IMG/VR virus record: IMGVR_UViG_3300043472_000004
Span: 1 to 61,723 of that record
Strand: one strand, 5' to 3'
From: a virus
Taxonomy: Duplodnaviria; Caudoviricetes
DNA length: 61,723 bases
Shown: in pieces, positions 4,847 to 56,348 of the stretch
Layout of the letters: every line of letters starts with the position of its first letter
How positions within the stretch are numbered: position 1 is the stretch's first letter
Made by a program: the position numbers and the translations under genes
Notes under the pieces: model-generated
Database searches by the model: none
What the model was told of the DNA's origin: nothing
Seen by the model: only the letters and a program-made list of their open reading frames with translations

Positions 4847-5067
4847 TTCTTCCTCTTTCGATAGGCTTTAGCAGCGTCCTTACAGAAGCGACATCGGCAC
4901 TTATAGTTATAGTAGAAATTGGGGGTGCCGTGTTGGTAAATGGTGAGCTCCGTCGCTTTCAAATCCATGCGATTCCAGAGCGACCAATTGCTCTTAGCAC
5001 GAGTGCATAATTCACACCTGCAACGGTGATTATTGTAGCCCGAAAGTGTGCCGTGTTCAAAGTCCAT
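4843..5067 (-). CDS. Small Cys/His protein with two HGT-x3-Y-x4-CRC-x2-C repeats (putative Zn-binding)
   Basis: HGTLSGYNNHRCRCELC and HGTPNFYYNYKCRCRFC. Confidence 0.75.
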   Translation of the reverse strand: MDFEHGTLSGYNNHRCRCELCTRAKSNWSLWNRMDLKATELTIYQHGTPNFYYNYKCRCRFCKDAAKAYRKRKK

Positions 5068-5191
5068 ATTTTCCCTATCATGTCAGAACTGGAGATAGAC
5101 TAGGCAAAACACTGGGTAAACCCTATAGGATACCTTGTAAGGAAATATGGTGGTGCTACCCAGTAAAAACGCTAGTCTATAACTAGGTTTG

Positions 5192-5220
5192 ACTATACAG
5201 GAGTTTTAGCGGTTTTGCAA
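5192..5220 (-). promoter_or_regulatory. SigA-type promoter of the amidoligase operon
   Basis: TTGCAA-17nt-TATAGT. Confidence 0.7.
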
Positions 5221-5269
5221 ATTGAGGCTATGACTGGGAAAGAGGGGGGTAGGGAAAAACGACATCCTA

Positions 5270-5420
5270 ACACTCTCTTATATATACACTATATATATAT
5301 ATTACTATATAGAATAATATACGTATAGAGAGAACGTAGCGGCTATCGATATTTTGGGGAGCTAGTTTATTACTCGTTTTCAATAGTAATAAAGTAGTAA
5401 TAGACTAGTAATAGACTAGA
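5270..5420. other. AT-rich non-coding region with 11-bp-period repeats; candidate replication origin
   Basis: (TA)n tract at about 5278-5325; TAGTAATA at 5384, 5395 and 5406. Confidence 0.4.
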
Positions 5421-6647: not shown

Positions 6648-7062
6648 GAGACTCCAACCAATCCAGCACGAGTGTCGGTGAAGCTGCTGTGATGTGGTAC
6701 TCATCATCGAGCATGACCCAGCCTCGTGCTGTATGGAGGACAGGGCACTTGAGTGGGTCCTCGTCGGGATTGAGTATCCACCCGTTGATATGAGCCTTTT
6801 CCTCACCCCAGCCGTAGCCGAAGTCAATTCCACCCTGTTCGGAGAATGAAATGACGTTAGCAGGTTTCCACGATCCGTTTCGAATCAGAATCGTTTCAGG
6901 CTCAGCGGCGGTATCATAGCTCGTGCCGTCACGCCTGTTGATCTTTGCGTAGTCGATGAACATTTCACCCATCAATCCCTTCAAATAGGATTTCGTAGCC
7001 TTGTGATTTGGCATATGCTTGAACTTCGCCTCTGCTGAACCAACCACCTTCACTGGGTTCAT
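6634..7062 (-). CDS. Hypothetical protein
   Basis: ORF track, on the coding strand of this arm. Confidence 0.6.
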   Translation of the reverse strand: MNPVKVVGSAEAKFKHMPNHKATKSYLKGLMGEMFIDYAKINRRDGTSYDTAAEPETILIRNGSWKPANVISFSEQGGIDFGYGWGEEKAHINGWILNPDEDPLKCPVLHTARGWVMLDDEYHITAASPTLVLDWLESHALL

Positions 7063-7201
7063 TTACGATACGTCGGTATCCACCTTCAACAGCAACGAAA
7101 AATGTCACCCTCTTTGTATTTGGTCACAGTTGGTCCTTCTTCCGGTGGACAGATGATACTGTTATGACGTGAATTGCAAAGGATGCAATAACGTTGCAAC
7201 G

Positions 7202-7417
7202 TCATAATTGGTACTCCTGTCCGTTCTGTCGTGTGTTGCTATAGAGGACGAATAGCCTTTTGTATTTCTTTGAACCTTGAGCGAGAGAGATTGAATCAAA
7301 CCATAGCCGCTCTCCCTTTATGACGACAAAGTACCCAGACTGGTCCTCATAGATCGTATCGGAGCGGTACTGAGTCAGCGGCGTACTAGCTGACGGAGAG
7401 GTCTGCCGCTTGCGCAT
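7202..7417 (-). CDS. Hypothetical protein
   Basis: ORF track. Confidence 0.5.
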   Translation of the reverse strand: MRKRQTSPSASTPLTQYRSDTIYEDQSGYFVVIKGERLWFDSISLAQGSKKYKRLFVLYSNTRQNGQEYQL

Positions 7418-7677
7418 CGTACCACCCCGCGATATAGGCTACGTAGGATTCCGAGGCGAGGTCGTAGGGGTTATAAAACTCGTCGGTGTAGTAATCATCC
7501 CAGCCACGCCAATAGGGAGTTTTCACTTAAACCACGACCTTTCCTCATCGTAGGGTTCTACATAATATGCGTCTGTTTGGTAGATGGTATTGTACTCATC
7601 CGCTAATTCGTTACAAGTAGCCTCGGACGCCATGTAAAGGATATGGTTTTCCATTTCCTTAGACTTGACGACGAACA

Positions 7678-7954: not shown

Positions 7955-8247
7955 GCTAATTAGTCCTCTTCAATTGCGAGGTAGTCGATGTGGGCGGCGT
8001 GTAACGCTTGTGTGAGTTGCTGGATCGATTTGGCCTTGACGCGGAGAACGCGGTGCGACGTAATGACAGTGAACATGGTTATCTCCTATTATTTTTGGGC
8101 GCGTTGGAACCCCGCCCTAGCTATATGAAAGCTAGAGCGGGGGAGTGTTACAGAGCGCGAGCAAGCCAAATGGTGGCGGTGATTGCGAATACAGTGATGG
8201 CGATTCGCATGAGAGTGAGAAAGAGTTGATCCAGATTGATCGTGATT

Positions 8248-8559
8248 CTACGCATTGCGCTGCACCTCTTGCATGATGATGGTCCGGACGGCGTGAACGA
8301 GAGGAACGAACTTGAGGGAAGCAACACGCACGATAACGTTTTGCTTCACGATCAGTTCTTGCCCATCGAGCAGAGACATGAGCTCATCCGCTCCGGAGAG
8401 TACGTGATCTGTACTCGAATCCTTACGGGCACGTTTTGAGGCACCATGGAAGACATATTCCAGATTCGAATATACTCCCTTGTTTGTGGCCTTGTTCGCG
8501 GTCGAGTAGTTGACCACGCGGCGCGCTTTGAGTGCGCGGGGTTGCGTTGATCCGTACAT
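8248..8559 (-). CDS. Basic hypothetical protein directly downstream of the structured region
   Basis: SD AGAAAGGG; K/R-rich N-terminal half. Confidence 0.7.
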   Translation of the reverse strand: MYGSTQPRALKARRVVNYSTANKATNKGVYSNLEYVFHGASKRARKDSSTDHVLSGADELMSLLDGQELIVKQNVIVRVASLKFVPLVHAVRTIIMQEVQRNA

Positions 8560-8575
8560 AATGCACCCTTTCTTT

Positions 8576-9395
8576 GAGTAGTGACACTGCTAGATATATT
8601 TAGATATATTCCAAGCTAGAAGCATTACTACCCACACAAGCAACGTCCATAAGAGGGCATAGTTTCTGCCCGATTACATATGACCCGCGCTTGTGTGAGC
8701 GCGCATGTATTTAGAGAGATTTCACCCATTACTAGCTAAGTTTTACGTGACGCTTACAAAGTGAATAAGCGCGAACCTCCCCGTCAAGAGTGGGGTCCAG
8801 TCCTATAGATCAGAATATAATCGCGTCATGTGCTACCAGTTTTATCTTTTGGCACAGAGTTTTCATGGTTGAAATAGTTTAGAGTTATCGCTAATGTTGA
8901 GAATGCATAGTTATCCTAATGCGCAGGGGACCCGCTTACTCGCGGTTAGATTCCATTGCCTTATTACAACTAACTCTCGATTAGAGACAAAAATAGCGGT
9001 CTCATTTCCTTTCAGGGTAGTGTCACTACGTGCCACCTAAAAGAGAGAAATTTGACGGTTCTCTAGCTTAGGGAAGCAATCGTAACCTATGCCTTAGTCG
9101 AAGACGCTCATTGCTGCACGCCTCACTTTTGCCCTCCTAGCAGGAAATTCTGACAATCCTAGCTAGTTACGTGTGCCTTATCTCACACACGAAGGTATCT
9201 CCGGAATACAACGCGCCGGGATCGAGTAGTACCGGAACGCGTAACGGATCAAGCATGTTCCAAAGCGACCGACAGGGCGACTCATGCGAGTCCCGAATGC
9301 CTTACGGGGTGGAATGAAATTAATCATTGCATGACATCGATGTGATGTCAATAGTTAGCTCGGTTGGCACCCTGTGGAAGCGGTGCCGGTTGAAC
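8576..9395 (-). ncRNA. Candidate large structured ncRNA or structured leader
   Basis: No ORF of 60 aa or more on either strand; long-range 13-bp helix 8578-8590/9017-9029 plus more than 10 nested hairpins; candidate promoter TTGTGC-17-CAGTCT at about 9431-9403. Confidence 0.6.
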
Positions 9396-9706
9396 AAGTC
9401 CCAGACTGCCATGGATTCCAAACGGGCACAAGACCTTTTCGGGGGTAGAAGTTGAGTTCTACTCATTGCGGCTCTGTGCGGCGTTCTAACGCGTTGGACC
9501 CCCTATCTGGCATCCCACTACCAACCTGACCCTGATAAGCGCTTGACGGGGCGATTCTGTGCCAGCGGACATAGTAATGCCCCCTGCCAGTTCAACAGGG
9601 GGCGGGTTTCGGTTATCGGGGGATGATTCCGAGTGCAAGCCATATGGTGGCGGTCACTGCCAGCACTGCTATGGCTAGGTCACGGATTGCAACGATTGCG
9701 CGCATG

Positions 9707-9952
9707 TCATTCACCCCCGATCCATGTCACGTCACCGGATGGCAACAGAGTCACGTTGCCTGAGGGTAGCCAATCGGACTCAGCGCGTGATGCTTCGATG
9801 TCGCTTGCATCCGTTTGGGGGTAGGCCATAACCCACCCATAGCGTGTATTGAAGACCCGCGCGGCCTTGACACGAGCACCCCTAACCGTGGTCGCTGTGA
9901 CCTCGCCTAGTGTGCGTGATGTGGTCATGTCGGTGATGGTGTATGTGCTCAT
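9707..9952 (-). CDS. Hypothetical protein (likely early gene)
   Basis: SD AGGAG before MSTYTITD; in frame with an upstream ATG at 10195. Confidence 0.6.
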   Translation of the reverse strand: MSTYTITDMTTSRTLGEVTATTVRGARVKAARVFNTRYGWVMAYPQTDASDIEASRAESDWLPSGNVTLLPSGDVTWIGGE

Positions 9953-10480
9953 GATGTGTGTGCTCCTAGGTTGGTCAGTGCGTGGTCGTGGTGTGGTAGT
10001 CGTCGGTGGCGTATCCATCGGCGGGGTGTGCGTGGTGTCGTCTGCCCACTGGTACGTGGACGCCTCTAGCTCAGTGGCTATGGCCTCGTATGTGCTGGCA
10101 CTGGCTGCGCTGCGCGCGTCGTCGTGGTGCTCCACGCGTGGCGCGTATGTGGGCGCGTCGGTCGGTGGATATGTGGTGCGTGTGTATGTGCTCATGTGTG
10201 TCAGTGTACGCGTGATAGTGGTGTGTGCGTGGTGCGTGGTACCCCCAGTGTAGGGGTGATATGCGTAGTACGGTAGACAGGGTGGTCATGGCATCGTGCG
10301 CGCGTGTGCGTGTGGTGTGTGTACGTGGTGGCGTGGCCTGTCGAGGGGTGGCGCGACTGTCGAAATCGGGGAAAGAAAACAGAAAGTTCTGTCTACCCCT
10401 GTTCGTGGGGTGGGCTGGAGGTATGCGACAAAATGTCCACAAAAAGTCCCTGATCTTTGCCCCTAATTTTTTAAAATCCC
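9886..10480. other. Compositionally anomalous junction between the two genome arms; candidate terminus/packaging region
   Basis: GT-rich tract almost lacking AA/TT, followed by A/T tracts; transcription diverges here. Confidence 0.45.
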
Positions 10481-10568
10481 CCTTGCGAAGCTGAGTTTAA
10501 TGTCATACCTACCCAATACTCCTGAGAACCCCGCAAGACCACTATCAAACTCCTGAAAAACGCGTAAT

Positions 10569-10597
10569 TTGACAATAGTCCCCTGAGCCTGTAACGT
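10569..10597 (+). promoter_or_regulatory. SigA-type promoter
   Basis: TTGACA-17nt-TAACGT; SD AGGAGAGG downstream. Confidence 0.7.
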
Positions 10598-10622
10598 TAT
10601 TAGTACTAGGAGAGGAAGCCCT

Positions 10623-11657
10623 GTGAATGCACGTGTATATCCAGACCCGGTAGTATACTTAGCCGGTCCCATGACGGGTATTAAGCACTTCAACGCTGAA
10701 GCGTTCGAGAAGTACGCTGCGCGCCTGCGTGAGTACGGTTATAACGTCGTTAGCCCCCTTGAGCACGACATGGAGGGCGGTTTTAACCCCTTCCGGTGGG
10801 ACGGATCGGAGTCTATGTCTGAGACGGGCTTTGATCTAGAGGCTGCCATGAAGTGGGATTTGGAGCAGGTTCGCCACGCTGATGCAGTAGCAGTGATCCC
10901 TATGCCCTCTTTGAACTGGAAGTCTAAGGGACTCGATGCTGAAATCGGGACGGCAAAGAACTACGGGGTTCCTGTCTACTACTTGACCTCAAGGTTTCTA
11001 GCTGTGGATTCACAAAGACATCCCACCAAAGCAGATACCCATTTTCCTTGCCGCGCATGTGACCCTCTTCTTTTGGGTAAGCCCTTTGGTCAGCAGGCAA
11101 TGAGGAACTACTCTACTGGTGGCTACACCGGAGCGATTAATAATATTCAGTGGGAAACGGGGTCAGCGGCTTATATGGGAAAGATCGACTATATGAGTTA
11201 TCCGACTACATATAACACTCTGTCGGCTAAGGATAAGTTAGACATCTTGGAGAGAAAAATAGATGGACTGGAAAAAAAGAGCTCAGGAACACCATCCTCA
11301 ACAGGAGACGGACGAAGCACGGGAGTGGTTGAAGAGGTACGAACTACTTCAAGTACTGGTGGACAAAAGGGTGTTAAATCCGCCCGCTACGACCTCATTC
11401 CAACAGGAGCTCTTAGACAGCTTGCCGAGCATTACGGAAGGGGTGCTGAGAAGTATGATGATAACCAGTGGCGTAAAGGTTACGAATGGTCTAAATCCTA
11501 CGCGGCACTCCAGCGTCATGCCACTGAGTTCTGGAGCGGGGAAGACTTCGATGAAGAGACAGGCTCGAATCATCTTGCGGCTGTCGCATGGCACGCACTG
11601 ACATTGCTCACCTTCTATGACGAGCACCCCGACTTTGACGACAGGTTCACGTCATGA
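10623..11657 (+). CDS. Fusion: DUF4406/nucleoside 2-deoxyribosyltransferase-like domain + dATP/dGTP diphosphohydrolase (DUF5664-like) domain
   Basis: VYLAGPMTG...FN..AF...S.G...E at the N-terminus; K..RYDLIP..AL......GA.KY...W.KG......ALQRH...GED.D.ETG..HLA..AW at the C-terminus. Confidence 0.85.
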   Translation: MNARVYPDPVVYLAGPMTGIKHFNAEAFEKYAARLREYGYNVVSPLEHDMEGGFNPFRWDGSESMSETGFDLEAAMKWDLEQVRHADAVAVIPMPSLNWKSKGLDAEIGTAKNYGVPVYYLTSRFLAVDSQRHPTKADTHFPCRACDPLLLGKPFGQQAMRNYSTGGYTGAINNIQWETGSAAYMGKIDYMSYPTTYNTLSAKDKLDILERKIDGLEKKSSGTPSSTGDGRSTGVVEEVRTTSSTGGQKGVKSARYDLIPTGALRQLAEHYGRGAEKYDDNQWRKGYEWSKSYAALQRHATEFWSGEDFDEETGSNHLAAVAWHALTLLTFYDEHPDFDDRFTS

Positions 11658-14733: not shown

Positions 14734-14807
14734 CAGTCTATGGGAAAGTTTGGGAATCCGCTCGCCTTGGAAGCGAGAGAACGTAGGTTCAAATCCTACT
14801 GGACTGA
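14734..14807 (+). tRNA. tRNA-Pro(TGG)
   Basis: Cloverleaf; anticodon arm CTCGC-cttggaa-GCGAG; T loop TTCAAAT. Confidence 0.88.
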
Positions 14808-54260: not shown

Positions 54261-55672
54261 ATTTTTTGTCTCTTCCTCAGTGACTTATTGCGAGCTAGGG
54301 CTTCTTGGATTTGCTTGGACGTTATACCTTCATCCATAGTACCCACTCCCCTGAAATAAATGCGTAGAACCTGAGTGCGCTGTCCGGGGCGATCCAAGCG
54401 CCCTCGACCCTGCTCATTGTCCGTTCCGTCGTCGGATTCTGATATCCATAGCTCTGTGTTACTGGCGTACTGAATACCATCTGTGCCGGTACTGATTGCA
54501 CCGATAACCGCCACGAGGACATCTATTTCTCCCTTAATGAAAGCTTCCTTGATTACCTTACGCTTAGCCTCCGACACGTCGCCGGACCACTCAACAGTAC
54601 GATAGCCAGCCTTGGTAATTCGCTTGACCAAAACCTTAGTGAACCGCTTATCGTGAGTATATACGATAACTGGTGATCCGTCAAGCTTGGCTAGTGTGGC
54701 TAGGAGTCCGTTCTCTGCGTCGAGCTTGGGGCTTTCGCACCTGTCTTCGAAGTAGAGCTTTCCCGTTGCGGCATCGATGGAGGGTAGAGCGAGGGAACAG
54801 GTTCGTAACATACCACGGGCCACGATGGGTAGCGATGCAACGATGGGAAGCTTTCCGTTACTGTCAGGGGTTGTAAGCCAGGCCACATAGTCCTTCTCCA
54901 TCTGCTTGTAGAAAATCTTCTGCTTAAGACTAAGCTCGATCTTGTTGACGTACATGGTCGGTTCGTCAAGGTCAAGGAACCCATTGGGGTGAAAGTCACA
55001 GCACCGTTCGCGCTGAAGGTGCTGGATGTAGCACGGCAAGCTATTGACAAGCTGCCCCGGATTCTTTTCTCCTGTAACCTTCCAGTTCTGGAGAGCGAAG
55101 GGATCGTACTTACCCTGCTGCTTGCGTCGCCAAATCCAGTACGTTTCGGTCATAAGGTGCGGCCAAATCCACCGGATCAATGCCCAGATATTCTCCCACT
55201 TGTTACGCAGTGGGGTACCACTCATGCCGATCCTACGCTTCGCCTGTAGCTGATGCATAGCGGCACGAGAACGATTCGTGTAGTTACACGCCGTGTGAAT
55301 CTCATCAAAAATTGCAAGGTCAGGAACGACAGTGTTCCATTTCCTCAAAGCGAACCACTGGGGCGTACAGATGTACCAGCCCTCTTGACCCCATGTCAAA
55401 TTAGCAAGGGCAGTCTTACCCTTCTTGCTGGAATCTAGTCGAGCGATCTTGGCGTCTGGGTCCTGCCGGAGAATCGTTTCGGCCCACGACGGAATGGTAT
55501 TTCTTGGGCAAATGACCATGATAGCACCGGGTCGCATTCGGACACCCACTTCGACTGCGACAAGAGTCTTTCGTCCACCCACAGATGAAACGATGAGCGC
55601 TGAGCCATCATGCTTAATGATTTCCCGAATATCGTGTTCCTGATAGGGAAGGGGAGTTTGTCGGTCATTCAA
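54257..55672 (-). CDS. SF2 (SNF2-like) DNA helicase
   Basis: PYQ, GGRKT, FDEIH, SGTP, Q..GRLDRPGQ. Confidence 0.9.
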   Translation of the reverse strand: MNDRQTPLPYQEHDIREIIKHDGSALIVSSVGGRKTLVAVEVGVRMRPGAIMVICPRNTIPSWAETILRQDPDAKIARLDSSKKGKTALANLTWGQEGWYICTPQWFALRKWNTVVPDLAIFDEIHTACNYTNRSRAAMHQLQAKRRIGMSGTPLRNKWENIWALIRWIWPHLMTETYWIWRRKQQGKYDPFALQNWKVTGEKNPGQLVNSLPCYIQHLQRERCCDFHPNGFLDLDEPTMYVNKIELSLKQKIFYKQMEKDYVAWLTTPDSNGKLPIVASLPIVARGMLRTCSLALPSIDAATGKLYFEDRCESPKLDAENGLLATLAKLDGSPVIVYTHDKRFTKVLVKRITKAGYRTVEWSGDVSEAKRKVIKEAFIKGEIDVLVAVIGAISTGTDGIQYASNTELWISESDDGTDNEQGRGRLDRPGQRTQVLRIYFRGVGTMDEGITSKQIQEALARNKSLRKRQKI

Positions 55673-56348
55673 GTCCCAGCCTCTTCATCTTCTGATTCGC
55701 TCGACGTATTGCGTTAGCCATTTGTCCACGCTCTTGCGCACTCATGCCGTGTCCGGGAAAATACCTTTGGACCGCCGTGCCACTGTATCCTACAGTACGA
55801 CCCGTCTCTGCATAGCTTGCGCCATCATCAAGCCATCGCTTCATTTCCGCAAGCTGCTCTTCGGTGGGTGAGGGCTTGGCTGGCTTAGAAAGATTTTCCA
55901 TAGCACGATAACGTTCAACGGTTCTAATTGAAACGCCCGTGATGCGAGCAATACGTTGCCGTGAATAATTCAGCTTACTCAGACGAATAACCTCAGCATA
56001 ATTTTCATACCAAGGTGAGTGCGCATTCTTCAGCCTTGAACCCGGTCCGAATGCCTGAGAAAAAATAATCCCAGACTTCTCCGCGTGTAATGTCAGACTC
56101 CCGTGTCCCACACCGAGCTCTCGCTCTGCTTGGCGCTTGCTATAACCCGCCTCTGCAAGTTCAGCAATACGCGCCTTTTTCTCTTCTGGAATCAGATGTC
56201 TCTCATCTTGTACAAAAATGACACCATGACGAGAAGCCCAACGCCGCAAGTTTCCTGACTTAAGGCCAGTTTCCTGAGCAGCTTCAGCGACAGTATGTCC
56301 CGAAGCCGCTAGCTTAAGAATCTTCTCCGTTTGAGGTAATGCTCTCAT
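55665..56348 (-). CDS. Multi-HTH DNA-binding protein
   Basis: About four tandem HTH-like units (e.g. IARITGVSIRTVERYR). Confidence 0.8.
   Translation of the reverse strand: MRALPQTEKILKLAASGHTVAEAAQETGLKSGNLRRWASRHGVIFVQDERHLIPEEKKARIAELAEAGYSKRQAERELGVGHGSLTLHAEKSGIIFSQAFGPGSRLKNAHSPWYENYAEVIRLSKLNYSRQRIARITGVSIRTVERYRAMENLSKPAKPSPTEEQLAEMKRWLDDGASYAETGRTVGYSGTAVQRYFPGHGMSAQERGQMANAIRRANQKMKRLGLE

What the first reader, a model, noticed from the sequence alone, without database searches (positions are those of the whole stretch)
8576..9395. Candidate undescribed large (~820 nt) structured phage ncRNA, next to a basic protein gene
Seen: in an otherwise tightly packed genome this stretch has no ORF of 60 aa or more, yet it is full of nested complementarity. 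A long-range helix GTAGTGACACTGC (8578-8590) / GTAGTGTCACTAC (9017-9029) closes a ~450-nt domain. Inside it are CACACAAGC/GCTTGTGTG (enclosing GGGCA/TGCCC), CGCTTA/TAAGCG, CCCC/GGGG, GTGCTA/TGGCAC, AGAGTTA/TAACTCT, CCGC/GCGG and GAGAC/GTCTC. A second multibranch domain at 9029-9120 is closed by CGTGC/GCACG and holds CCTAA/TTAGG, AGAGAA/TTCTCT and AGCAAT/ATTGCT. Further hairpins follow (CTAGC/GCTAG, CGTGTG/CACACG, GACTC/GAGTC, TGACATC/GATGTCA, GGCACC/GGTGCC). A candidate leftward promoter (TTGTGC-17-CAGTCT) lies at about 9431-9403, and the closing helix ends just upstream of the SD of the K/R-rich ORF 8248-8559. Known: large phage-associated ncRNAs of this size class exist (GOLLD, ROOL), but I cannot assign this one. 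Inference: a stable early RNA, a ribozyme or an RNP with the adjacent protein. The strand is inferred from context.
Basis: partly seen in the sequence, partly recalled or inferred. Interest (0 to 1): 0.85.

Follow-up and report, generated by a model that had tools for sequence, protein, structure and literature searches.

The report
Long untranslated leader in soil phage
An ORF-free stretch of about 760 bases in an uncultured soil phage is most likely a long untranslated leader RNA with a few maintained hairpins in front of a small orphan gene; it is not shown to be one large folded RNA.

Summary
The stretch is real. It has no ORF of 60 aa or more, stops of all three kinds in all six frames, and no Rfam match.

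As evidence for one large fold they are weak. Folding energy is marginal: z -2.3 on the minus strand, -1.25 on the plus strand, and local 200-nt windows are unremarkable. Seven of 16 testable helices have near-zero pairing probability, including the long-range "closing helix".

The only full-length relative (about 90% identical) differs at 26 positions. Ten of these form five compensated pairs in two local hairpins, 9127-9096 (GCAA loop) and 9072-9036. Six predicted long-range pairs are broken. G.U pairs place the hairpins on the minus strand.

Strong hairpins at 9603-9579 and 8142-8110 bound a unit of promoter, roughly 757-nt leader and 103-aa orphan gene.

The "closing helix" arms are two copies of a 13-bp palindrome found nowhere else in either genome. 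They are possibly protein-binding sites.

Best reading: a new structured early leader or non-coding transcript, comparable to the mycobacteriophage L5/D29 Pleft RNA. No expression data and no distant homologues could be obtained.

The parts
9323..9351 (-). Candidate sigma-70-type promoter: TTGACA (9351-9346), 17-nt spacer, TG-extended AATGAT (9328-9323). Predicted start near 9316.
   Evidence: Consensus scan, 10 of 12 matches plus TG. Both hexamers are identical in L002 and in runs X5 and X7, for which all differences are listed. In X4, 7 spacer bases are replaced while the -35 is kept; the -10 could not be checked in X4. Similar TTGACA promoters precede the tRNA clusters. This is a prediction; there are no expression data.
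8560..9316 (-). ORF-free leader or non-coding transcript of about 757 nt, running from the predicted start to the start codon of the 103-aa gene.
   Evidence: No ORF of 60 aa or more. No SD-preceded micro-ORF of 8 or more codons is shared with L002. No Rfam match. z -2.30 on the minus strand.
9096..9127 (-). Hairpin A: about 12 pairs with a 2-nt bulge and a GCAA tetraloop (9114-9111).
   Evidence: GA>UG at 9124/9123 is compensated by UU>CA at 9102/9101 in L002. Three G.U pairs are valid on the minus strand only. The fold is the same in both phages.
9036..9072 (-). Hairpin B: outer CCUAAG/UUUUAGG, inner AGAGAA/UUCUCU, 9-nt loop.
   Evidence: Three adjacent inner pairs change on both sides in L002 (AGGAGA/UCUCCU). 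Pair probabilities 0.7-0.98. z -2.5 in the window and -2.8 in L002.
8575..8634 (-). Long imperfect hairpin ending 3 nt before the Shine-Dalgarno sequence. Its 3' arm contains palindrome copy 2.
   Evidence: Pair probabilities about 0.7-0.93; z -2.0. In L002 and X6 a 10-nt deletion falls in its loop, and G.U becomes A-U at 8632/8577.
9017..9029 (.). 13-bp palindrome copy 1 (GTAGTGTCACTAC on the plus strand).
   Evidence: Exact match. With one mismatch or fewer, only two sites exist in the window and only two in the relative's whole record.
8578..8590 (.). 13-bp palindrome copy 2 (one mismatch), 6 nt upstream of the SD and about 19 nt upstream of the start codon of the 103-aa gene.
   Evidence: The spacing to copy 1 is 439 bp in the window and 428 bp in L002, a difference of 11 bp.
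8565..8572 (-). Shine-Dalgarno-like AAAGGGUG of the 103-aa gene.
   Evidence: Read from the sequence.
8248..8559 (-). 103-aa orphan protein gene: a basic, low-confidence N-terminal half and a confident three-helix C-terminal domain.
   Evidence: The protein family has 9 representatives at 50% clustering. AlphaFold2 gives pLDDT above 90 for residues 50-103. No Pfam, PHROG, NCBIfam, PDB-sequence or fold match.
8110..8142 (-). Terminator-like hairpin closing the unit (13 pairs, -26.2 kcal/mol, no U tract).
   Evidence: z -6.0.
9579..9603 (-). Terminator-like hairpin ending the upstream leftward unit (-19.9 kcal/mol).
   Evidence: z -3.7. Conserved in L002 with one loop change.

Best explanation
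The stretch is the long untranslated 5' part of a leftward early transcription unit of a probably lytic soil siphophage.

Inferred: a host sigma-70-type promoter at 9351-9323 starts an RNA near 9316. The RNA runs about 757 nt without coding, continues through the 103-aa orphan gene (8559-8248), and stops at the strong hairpin 8142-8110.

Shown by comparison with one relative: the leader carries at least two hairpins kept by compensatory change, A at 9127-9096 with a GCAA loop and B at 9072-9036. A third large hairpin abutting the ribosome-binding site tolerates a loop deletion and a G.U to A-U change.

Inferred mechanism: the hairpins act in cis on the stability, processing or translation of the early transcript, or as protein-binding sites. 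The RNA may accumulate as a stable non-coding species, as the Pleft RNA of mycobacteriophages L5 and D29 does.

The two copies of the 13-bp palindrome are more likely binding sites for a dimeric protein than a long-range RNA helix. The adjacent three-helix protein, acting in autoregulation, is a candidate. This is inference only.
For: - Non-coding.
- Not a known RNA family: only tRNAs reach the gathering score in the window. In E-value mode over 8000-10700 the only hit is a terminator-like MicL fragment at 9575-9610.
- Promoter: with the hexamers invariant in L002 and in X5 and X7. The spacer is replaced in X4.
- Unit bounded by strong hairpins.
- Covariation, RNAalifold on window versus L002: 232 pairs, 5 changed on both sides and kept, 0 broken. 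Slid controls give 0-1.
- Covariation, on a structure predicted from the window alone: 26 substitutions, 5 compensated pairs against a null mean of 0.16, with 0 of 5000 permutations reaching 5.
- Strand: hairpin A, hairpin B and the SD-proximal hairpin each contain G.U pairs that would be C.A mismatches on the plus strand. z is -2.30 on the minus strand and -1.25 on the plus strand.
- The plus-strand promoter-like site 8581-8610 loses its spacing through the 10-nt deletion in L002.
- Precedent: L5, D29 and StarStuff make an abundant, stable, roughly 500-nt non-coding RNA from the early leftward promoter Pleft, ahead of their leftward genes (PMC5712189; passages and section 11 read).
- A WhiB-like match in ORF 55665-56348 and terminator-like hairpins without U tracts are compatible with an actinobacterial host. 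This is inference.
Against: - No expression data of any kind.
- Only one full-length relative, about 90% identical, so the covariation rests on two events in one pairwise comparison.
- Clustered complementary changes in inverted repeats can also arise by template-switch mutation without selection on RNA. This mechanism is recalled from the literature and was not checked here.
- Folding energy is marginal overall and unremarkable locally. Hairpin A alone has z -0.64.
- 6 predicted long-range pairs are broken in L002, close to the null of 8.5. There is therefore no support for any global architecture.
- Near-identity of 8700-9000 between the two phages is not special. Coding DNA at 6700-7600 is also 100% identical.
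- In run X4, 0 of 170 bases differ at 8741-8910 against 24 of 172 in the gene. Mosaicism could explain this.
- The promoter is a consensus match only, and no transcript end is known.
Confidence: 0.5

Rival explanations
1. An autonomous large structured non-coding RNA in the size class of GOLLD and ROOL. It would have a defined global fold and possibly act as a ribozyme, a self-assembling RNA, or an RNP with the adjacent basic 103-aa protein.
For: - About 757 nt without coding capacity.
- Covarying hairpins, one with a GNRA-type GCAA loop.
- Two self-complementary 13-nt elements that could mediate RNA-RNA contacts.
- The adjacent protein has a basic, disordered N-terminal half.
- No Rfam family matches.
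Against: - Global z is only -2.3 and local windows are unremarkable.
- The long-range closing helix has probability 0.0.
- 6 long-range MFE pairs are broken in L002.
- No terminator-like 3' end was found between the RNA and the gene, so a discrete RNA is not indicated.
- The element is confined to a very narrow clade.
- No second copy of the hairpin A/B domain exists in the genome.
Confidence: 0.12
2. A DNA-level control region, such as operators, a looping region or an origin. The two 13-bp palindromes would be bound by a dimeric protein, perhaps the adjacent three-helix protein, and the inverted repeats would matter as DNA.
For: - The palindrome occurs exactly twice in the window and twice in the relative's complete record, both times only here.
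- One copy sits directly upstream of the gene's ribosome-binding site.
- The two phages differ by 11 bp in spacing, about one helical turn.
- GC content is lower than in the flanks (0.43-0.46).
- The distant relative Jojan60 has a 1.13-kb unannotated gap rich in short palindromic repeats, just upstream of a small annotated DNA-binding protein in its leftward block.
Against: - The covarying hairpins contain G.U pairs and a bulge, which fit a single strand, not a symmetric duplex site.
- No iterons or other repeat families occur in the stretch apart from one 10-nt tandem duplication.
- The replication genes lie 35-47 kb away.
- The Jojan60 gap shares no sequence with this one.
- The protein has no detectable HTH family match.
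Confidence: 0.2
3. A lambda-like antitermination module. The leader hairpins would serve as nut- or put-like sites, and the 103-aa basic protein, first gene after the promoter and followed by a terminator, would be an N-like antiterminator that lets transcription continue into the downstream small early genes.
For: - Order of parts: promoter, leader with hairpins including a GNRA-type loop, small basic partly disordered protein, strong terminator-like hairpin, then many small leftward genes.
- Nut sites as RNA elements that nucleate a termination-resistant polymerase: PMC2724277, seen only as the start of its abstract in a search listing.
Against: - No similarity of the protein to any family.
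- No second copy of the hairpin domain for a rightward operon.
- A 757-nt leader is far longer than needed.
- Other promoter-like sites exist downstream of the terminator, for example 7914-7886.
Confidence: 0.08
4. A string of micro-ORFs or a decayed gene.
For: Short ORFs exist, for example 9178-9351 (57 aa, TTG) and 8911-9036 (41 aa, GTG).
Against: - No SD-preceded ORF of 8 or more codons is shared by the window and L002.
- The 57-aa ORF starts inside the predicted -35 box, and its stop is changed in L002.
- The 48-aa ORF 9320-9466 is hit by 2-nt and 3-nt indels in L002.
- No PHROG match for the two ORFs tested.
- All frames are broken by all three stop codons.
Confidence: 0.05

Closest known systems
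Early non-coding RNA made from Pleft of Cluster A mycobacteriophages (L5, D29, StarStuff)
   Same: An ORF-poor region of several hundred nucleotides lies directly downstream of an early leftward promoter, ahead of a long block of small leftward genes in a siphophage. The authors presume it is non-coding because no ORF longer than about 30 codons is conserved (PMC5712189).
   Different: No sequence similarity: blastn against 50,697 phage records found nothing. Ours is about 757 nt rather than about 500 nt, is not at a genome end, and is preceded by another leftward gene. Abundance, stability, processing and toxicity were shown for L5/D29 and are unknown here. The paper's supplementary alignment was not seen.
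Phage lambda pL-nutL-N leader (recalled textbook knowledge; PMC2724277 seen only as a search listing)
   Same: The order is leftward early promoter, structured leader, small basic partly disordered first gene, then a terminator.
   Different: No homology to N (no Pfam, PHROG or NCBIfam family matched). No demonstrable boxA/boxB. The leader is several times longer. Only one copy of the hairpin domain exists in the genome.
GOLLD and ROOL large ornate RNAs (PMC12286853, abstract start seen in search listing)
   Same: Similar size class, a phage setting, and no coding capacity.
   Different: No match to any Rfam 15 model even at E up to 10. Not adjacent to tRNA genes; the tRNA cluster starts at 14734. 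No evidence of a global fold. Confined to a very narrow clade.
Unannotated 1.13-kb gap of Stenotrophomonas virus Jojan60 (ON045087.1, 55325-56455)
   Same: A gap of about 1.1 kb in the tightly packed leftward block of a 61.8-kb phage whose terminase is 47% identical. It begins after a terminator-like hairpin and lies just upstream of a small gene (273 nt) annotated as a DNA-binding protein, and it contains short palindromic repeats.
   Different: No sequence similarity to our stretch or to the 103-aa protein. Jojan60 has a promoter-like site close to its gene and many repeats, which ours lacks. Nothing is published on it in the library searched.

Membership tests
Any Rfam 15 family (including GOLLD, ROOL, group I/II introns, riboswitches, 6S, tmRNA, to the extent they are in that release) | Match to the family covariance model | tested here: not met
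   At the gathering score only 14 tRNA hits, all elsewhere in the window. In E-value mode up to 10 over 8000-10700, on both strands, there is one hit: a 36-nt MicL fragment at 9575-9610 on a terminator-like hairpin.
GOLLD / ROOL | Typical placement next to tRNA genes in phages or prophages (recalled) | tested here: not met
   The nearest tRNA gene is at 14734, about 5.3 kb away on the other strand.
GOLLD / ROOL | Homo-oligomeric RNA-only assembly (PMC12286853, abstract start) | not testable with these tools
   Needs purified RNA with SEC-MALS or cryo-EM.
Large structured ncRNA in general | Covariation supporting long-range helices and multi-helix junctions | tested here: not met
All 5 compensated pairs lie in two local hairpins. 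6 long-range MFE pairs are broken in L002. Power is low with two sequences.
Large structured ncRNA in general | Folding energy clearly below shuffled controls | tested here: inconclusive
   z -2.30, with 4 of 100 shuffles as good. Local windows score -0.05 to -1.07.
Phage early non-coding leader RNA (L5/D29 Pleft type) | Position directly downstream of an early promoter, ahead of leftward early genes | tested here: met
   Predicted promoter at 9351-9323. Packed leftward small genes from 8559 down to 1. The promoter is a prediction only.
Phage early non-coding leader RNA (L5/D29 Pleft type) | No conserved ORF in the transcribed region | tested here: met
   and the indels and changed stop in L002.
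Phage early non-coding leader RNA (L5/D29 Pleft type) | Abundant, stable, processed transcript | not testable with these tools
   No RNA run holds the stretch.
Phage early non-coding leader RNA (L5/D29 Pleft type) | Sequence homology to the L5/D29 region | tested here: not met
   blastn of 8400-9600 against the phage collection: no match.
Lambda-type N/nut antitermination | N-family protein | tested here: not met
   No Pfam, PHROG or NCBIfam match for the 103-aa protein or its 10 relatives.
Lambda-type N/nut antitermination | Hairpin with a GNRA-like loop in the leader and a terminator downstream of the first gene | tested here: inconclusive
   Hairpin A has a GCAA loop and a strong hairpin follows the gene. 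No boxA-type element could be established, and there is no second site in the genome.

The most novel reading that the evidence does not exclude
The stretch encodes a previously undescribed phage RNA of about 750 nt that works as an RNA in its own right, not merely as a leader. It might form an RNP with the adjacent orphan protein (basic disordered half plus three-helix domain). Or it might self-associate through its two self-complementary 13-nt elements to take over a host process early in infection, as proposed for the toxic Pleft RNA of mycobacteriophages.
Probability: 0.12. Interest if true: 0.75.

Novelty: new member of a known kind. Interest (0 to 1): 0.4.

Why it matters
Long non-coding early transcripts of phages are known from very few systems, and their function is unknown even in L5 and D29. 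A second, unrelated example would give a tractable test case: it has a defined promoter, three hairpins with comparative support, a repeated palindrome and an adjacent orphan protein. It could show whether such leaders stabilise early mRNA, bind a phage regulator, or act on the host.

As it stands, the finding is an annotation-level result. It is a new RNA element in a rare clade of uncultured soil phages and is not a new class of large ribozyme-like RNA.

Tried and rejected
**Searches for more distant homologues, all empty or returning only the one close relative:**
- blastn against phages.
- The search for related loci with the 103-aa, 344-aa and 162-aa proteins in viral contigs.
- Alignment A1 in metagenome contigs (360 pattern hits, none a relative).
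- Alignment A2 in viral contigs gave 69 loci. nhmmer and tblastn found the stretch and the 103-aa protein only in L001, L002, L004 and L005, which are the window and the one relative.
- The whole records behind L030, L009, L017 and L014.
- A degenerate core pattern in viral, metagenome and genome contigs.
- A1 in genome contigs, A4 in viral contigs, and tblastn against phages.

**Sequencing runs:**
- No RNA holder was listed.
- Logan contigs of four soil runs covered only parts of the stretch in 87-603-nt pieces. Most carried the same variants as L002, and 37 differences were not shown. Parts without cover say nothing.

**The adjacent protein:**
- Fold searches found nothing at E of 0.001 or below.
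- The protein atlas had no usable hit.

**Other checks:**
- A covariance model of the hairpin A/B domain found no second copy in the window.
- Recoding was rejected and micro-ORFs were rejected.
- The plus-strand promoter at 8581-8610 was rejected because the 10-nt deletion in L002 destroys its spacing.
- The conservation argument was rejected as weak, because coding blocks are equally identical.
- Microbacterium phage Lupine shows no comparable gap in its first 12 kb.
- A boxA-like octamer and a tetraloop-receptor-like hexamer seen by eye were judged to be at chance level. They are not claimed.

- The search of earlier findings.
- The look-up of encoding contigs. It would have given the upstream DNA of P0001, P0002 and P0003.
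- Complex prediction.

Supplementary files of papers were not requested. Additional file 2 (Fig. S1 alignment) of PMC5712189 may bear on the comparison with L5/D29.
Full report
**What the window is.** The window is a complete 61,723-nt IMG/VR virus record. It encodes 15 tRNAs, a capsid protein and a terminase 40-47% identical to those of Stenotrophomonas virus Jojan60 and Microbacterium phages. Its replication and recombination module lies on the minus strand at 44-56 kb. No integrase was seen among the ORFs I scanned. Genes from about 10.2 kb down to 1 are small, tightly packed and leftward. Rightward genes start at 10623.

**Checking the observation.**
- The stretch is ORF-free as stated. 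The longest ORF inside 8576-9395 is 57 aa, no stop-to-stop frame exceeds 60 aa, and all three stop codons occur in all six frames.
- Their statistical weight is small. For 9316-8560 the MFE z-score is -2.30 on the minus strand (4 of 100 shuffles as good) and -1.25 on the plus strand (11 of 100).
- 200-nt windows over 8701-9300 score -0.05 to -1.07, no better than nearby coding DNA.
- In the minus-strand ensemble, 9 of 16 testable helices are probable (0.7 or above). The other 7 are essentially absent, including the long-range closing helix (0.0) and CGTGC/GCACG and AGCAAT/ATTGCT of the "second domain".

**Known families.** Rfam 15 gives only tRNAs at the gathering score. In permissive mode over 8000-10700 it gives only a terminator-like MicL fragment at 9575-9610. 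The element is therefore not GOLLD, ROOL, an intron or a known leader.

**Relatives.**
- One IMG/VR genome (locus L002; a complete 61,359-nt record) is about 90-98% identical over the region.
- The 103-aa protein has three near relatives and nine representatives at 50% clustering.
- Every other search for the stretch or the protein was empty.
- Short Logan contigs from four soil runs mostly repeat the L002 variants.
- The pairwise identity profile shows that 100% identical blocks are common in coding DNA too (6700-7600). Near-identity of 8700-9000 is therefore no evidence of constraint.
- In X4, 0 of 170 bases differ at 8741-8910 against 24 of 172 in the gene. This is suggestive, but mosaicism could explain it.

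**What the differences say.**
- Between 9330 and 8545 the two phages differ at 26 positions plus 12 gap columns.
- RNAalifold finds 232 pairs, with 5 changed on both sides and kept and none broken. Sliding the partners by 1-3 columns gives 0-1 such pairs.
- To avoid circularity I folded the window alone and threaded the L002 changes onto that structure. The same 5 compensated pairs appear (null mean 0.16; 0 of 5000 permutations reach 5). However, 6 pairs, all in long-range helices, are broken, close to the null of 8.5.
- The compensated pairs lie in two local hairpins:
  - Hairpin A, 9127-9096: GA>UG at 9124/9123 matched by UU>CA at 9102/9101. It has a GCAA tetraloop.
  - Hairpin B, 9072-9036: AGAGAA/UUCUCU becomes AGGAGA/UCUCCU.
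- Both hairpins fold identically in both phages.
- A third hairpin, 8634-8575, ends 3 nt before the Shine-Dalgarno sequence. It takes a 10-nt loop deletion and a G.U to A-U change in L002 and X6.
- All three hairpins contain G.U pairs that would be mismatches on the plus strand, so the minus strand is the functional one.
- Caveats: this is one pairwise comparison with two independent events. Template-switch mutation in inverted repeats (recalled, not checked) can produce such changes without selection on RNA.

**Transcription unit.**
- The consensus scan finds TTGACA-17-(TG)AATGAT at 9351-9323 on the minus strand.
- Both hexamers are unchanged in L002 and in X5 and X7 (all differences listed).
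- In X4, seven spacer bases are replaced while the -35 is kept. Its -10 could not be checked because 5 of 7 differences were not shown.
- Comparable TTGACA promoters precede the tRNA clusters and the 344-aa gene.
- Upstream, 9352-9575 is hypervariable, with indels that break the 48-aa ORF there.
- Strong hairpins at 9603-9579 (-19.9 kcal/mol) and 8142-8110 (-26.2 kcal/mol) flank the unit.
- No promoter-like site lies between the leader and the 103-aa gene, and no SD-preceded micro-ORF is shared by the two phages.
- The simplest reading is one leftward transcript: a roughly 757-nt leader plus the 103-aa gene.

**The palindromes.**
- With at most one mismatch the motif occurs only at these two places in the window and in the relative's whole genome.
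- In RNA each copy has a more probable local partner.
- A repeated palindrome is the usual signature of a dimeric DNA-binding protein.
- The spacing differs by 11 bp between the phages (439 versus 428 bp), about one helical turn.
- The adjacent protein has a confident three-helix C-terminal domain and a basic low-confidence N-terminal half. It has no family or fold match.
- Whether it binds these sites, as DNA or as RNA, is open.

**Comparison with what is known.**
- The nearest analogue in kind is the abundant, stable, roughly 500-nt non-coding RNA made from the early leftward promoter Pleft of mycobacteriophages L5, D29 and StarStuff (PMC5712189; passages and section 11 read). There is no sequence similarity.
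- The order promoter, structured leader, small basic protein, terminator also recalls lambda pL-nutL-N. This is recalled knowledge; PMC2724277 was seen only in a search listing. No defining feature of that system could be met.
- Jojan60 has a positional look-alike: a 1.13-kb unannotated gap with palindromic repeats upstream of a small DNA-binding protein. It shares no sequence with our stretch.

**Verdict.**
- There is a real, new, non-coding element, most likely acting as minus-strand RNA with at least two or three maintained hairpins.
- Nothing shows a single large folded RNA, a ribozyme or an RNP.
- My odds:
  - structured early leader or non-coding transcript: 0.5
  - DNA-level control region: 0.2
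  - autonomous large structured RNA: 0.12
  - antitermination module: 0.08
  - micro-ORFs: 0.05
- Interest is 0.4.

Noticed in passing
window 9613-9705 and 8148-8210 (minus), with hairpins 9579-9603 and 8110-8142: Two paralogous modules, each a tiny hydrophobic ORF (30 aa and 20 aa, sharing the motif TATIWLA) followed by a strong terminator-like hairpin, end two successive leftward units (46-nt direct repeat, 76%). The second module is missing or replaced in L002, X4 and X6, so it behaves like a small variable cassette.
   Followed up: partly
window 9366-9385: The hairpin GGCACC...GGTGCC, upstream of the predicted promoter, sits between two CAACCG direct repeats. In L002, X6 and X7 it is replaced by an unrelated 23-nt insert.
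   Followed up: partly
window 8592-8611: A 10-nt tandem duplication (TAGATATATT x2) in the loop of the SD-proximal hairpin. L002 and X6 carry one copy.
   Followed up: yes
L078 15326-16456 (ON045087.1 55325-56455): Stenotrophomonas virus Jojan60 has a 1.13-kb unannotated gap in its leftward gene block. It begins after a terminator-like hairpin and ends at a small 'putative DNA binding protein' gene. It contains repeats built on the palindromic core GACATGTC, tandem CTAGGCACC-like units, and a TTGACA promoter-like site close to the gene.
   Followed up: partly
window 9950-10400: Extreme strand composition (AT skew down to -0.52, GC 0.60-0.62) with ACCACGCAC-like repeats. The region covers the Thr/Pro-rich N-terminal half of ORF 9707-10195 and the divergent intergenic region, and it is highly variable against L002. 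The C-terminal half of the same ORF is identical in L002.
   Followed up: no
window 10623-11657: The 344-aa protein fuses a nucleoside 2-deoxyribosyltransferase-like N-terminal part with a dATP/dGTP diphosphohydrolase (DUF5664-type) C-terminal domain. 763 relatives were found at E of 1e-20 or below, many lacking the N-terminal part.
   Followed up: partly
window 5067-5416: A second, shorter ORF-poor gap with low GC (0.37-0.41) in the leftward block.
   Followed up: no
window 55665-56348: The ORF has a WhiB-like match (phrog_472) besides HTH and DNA-binding matches. Together with terminator-like hairpins that lack U tracts, this hints at an actinobacterial host.
   Followed up: no
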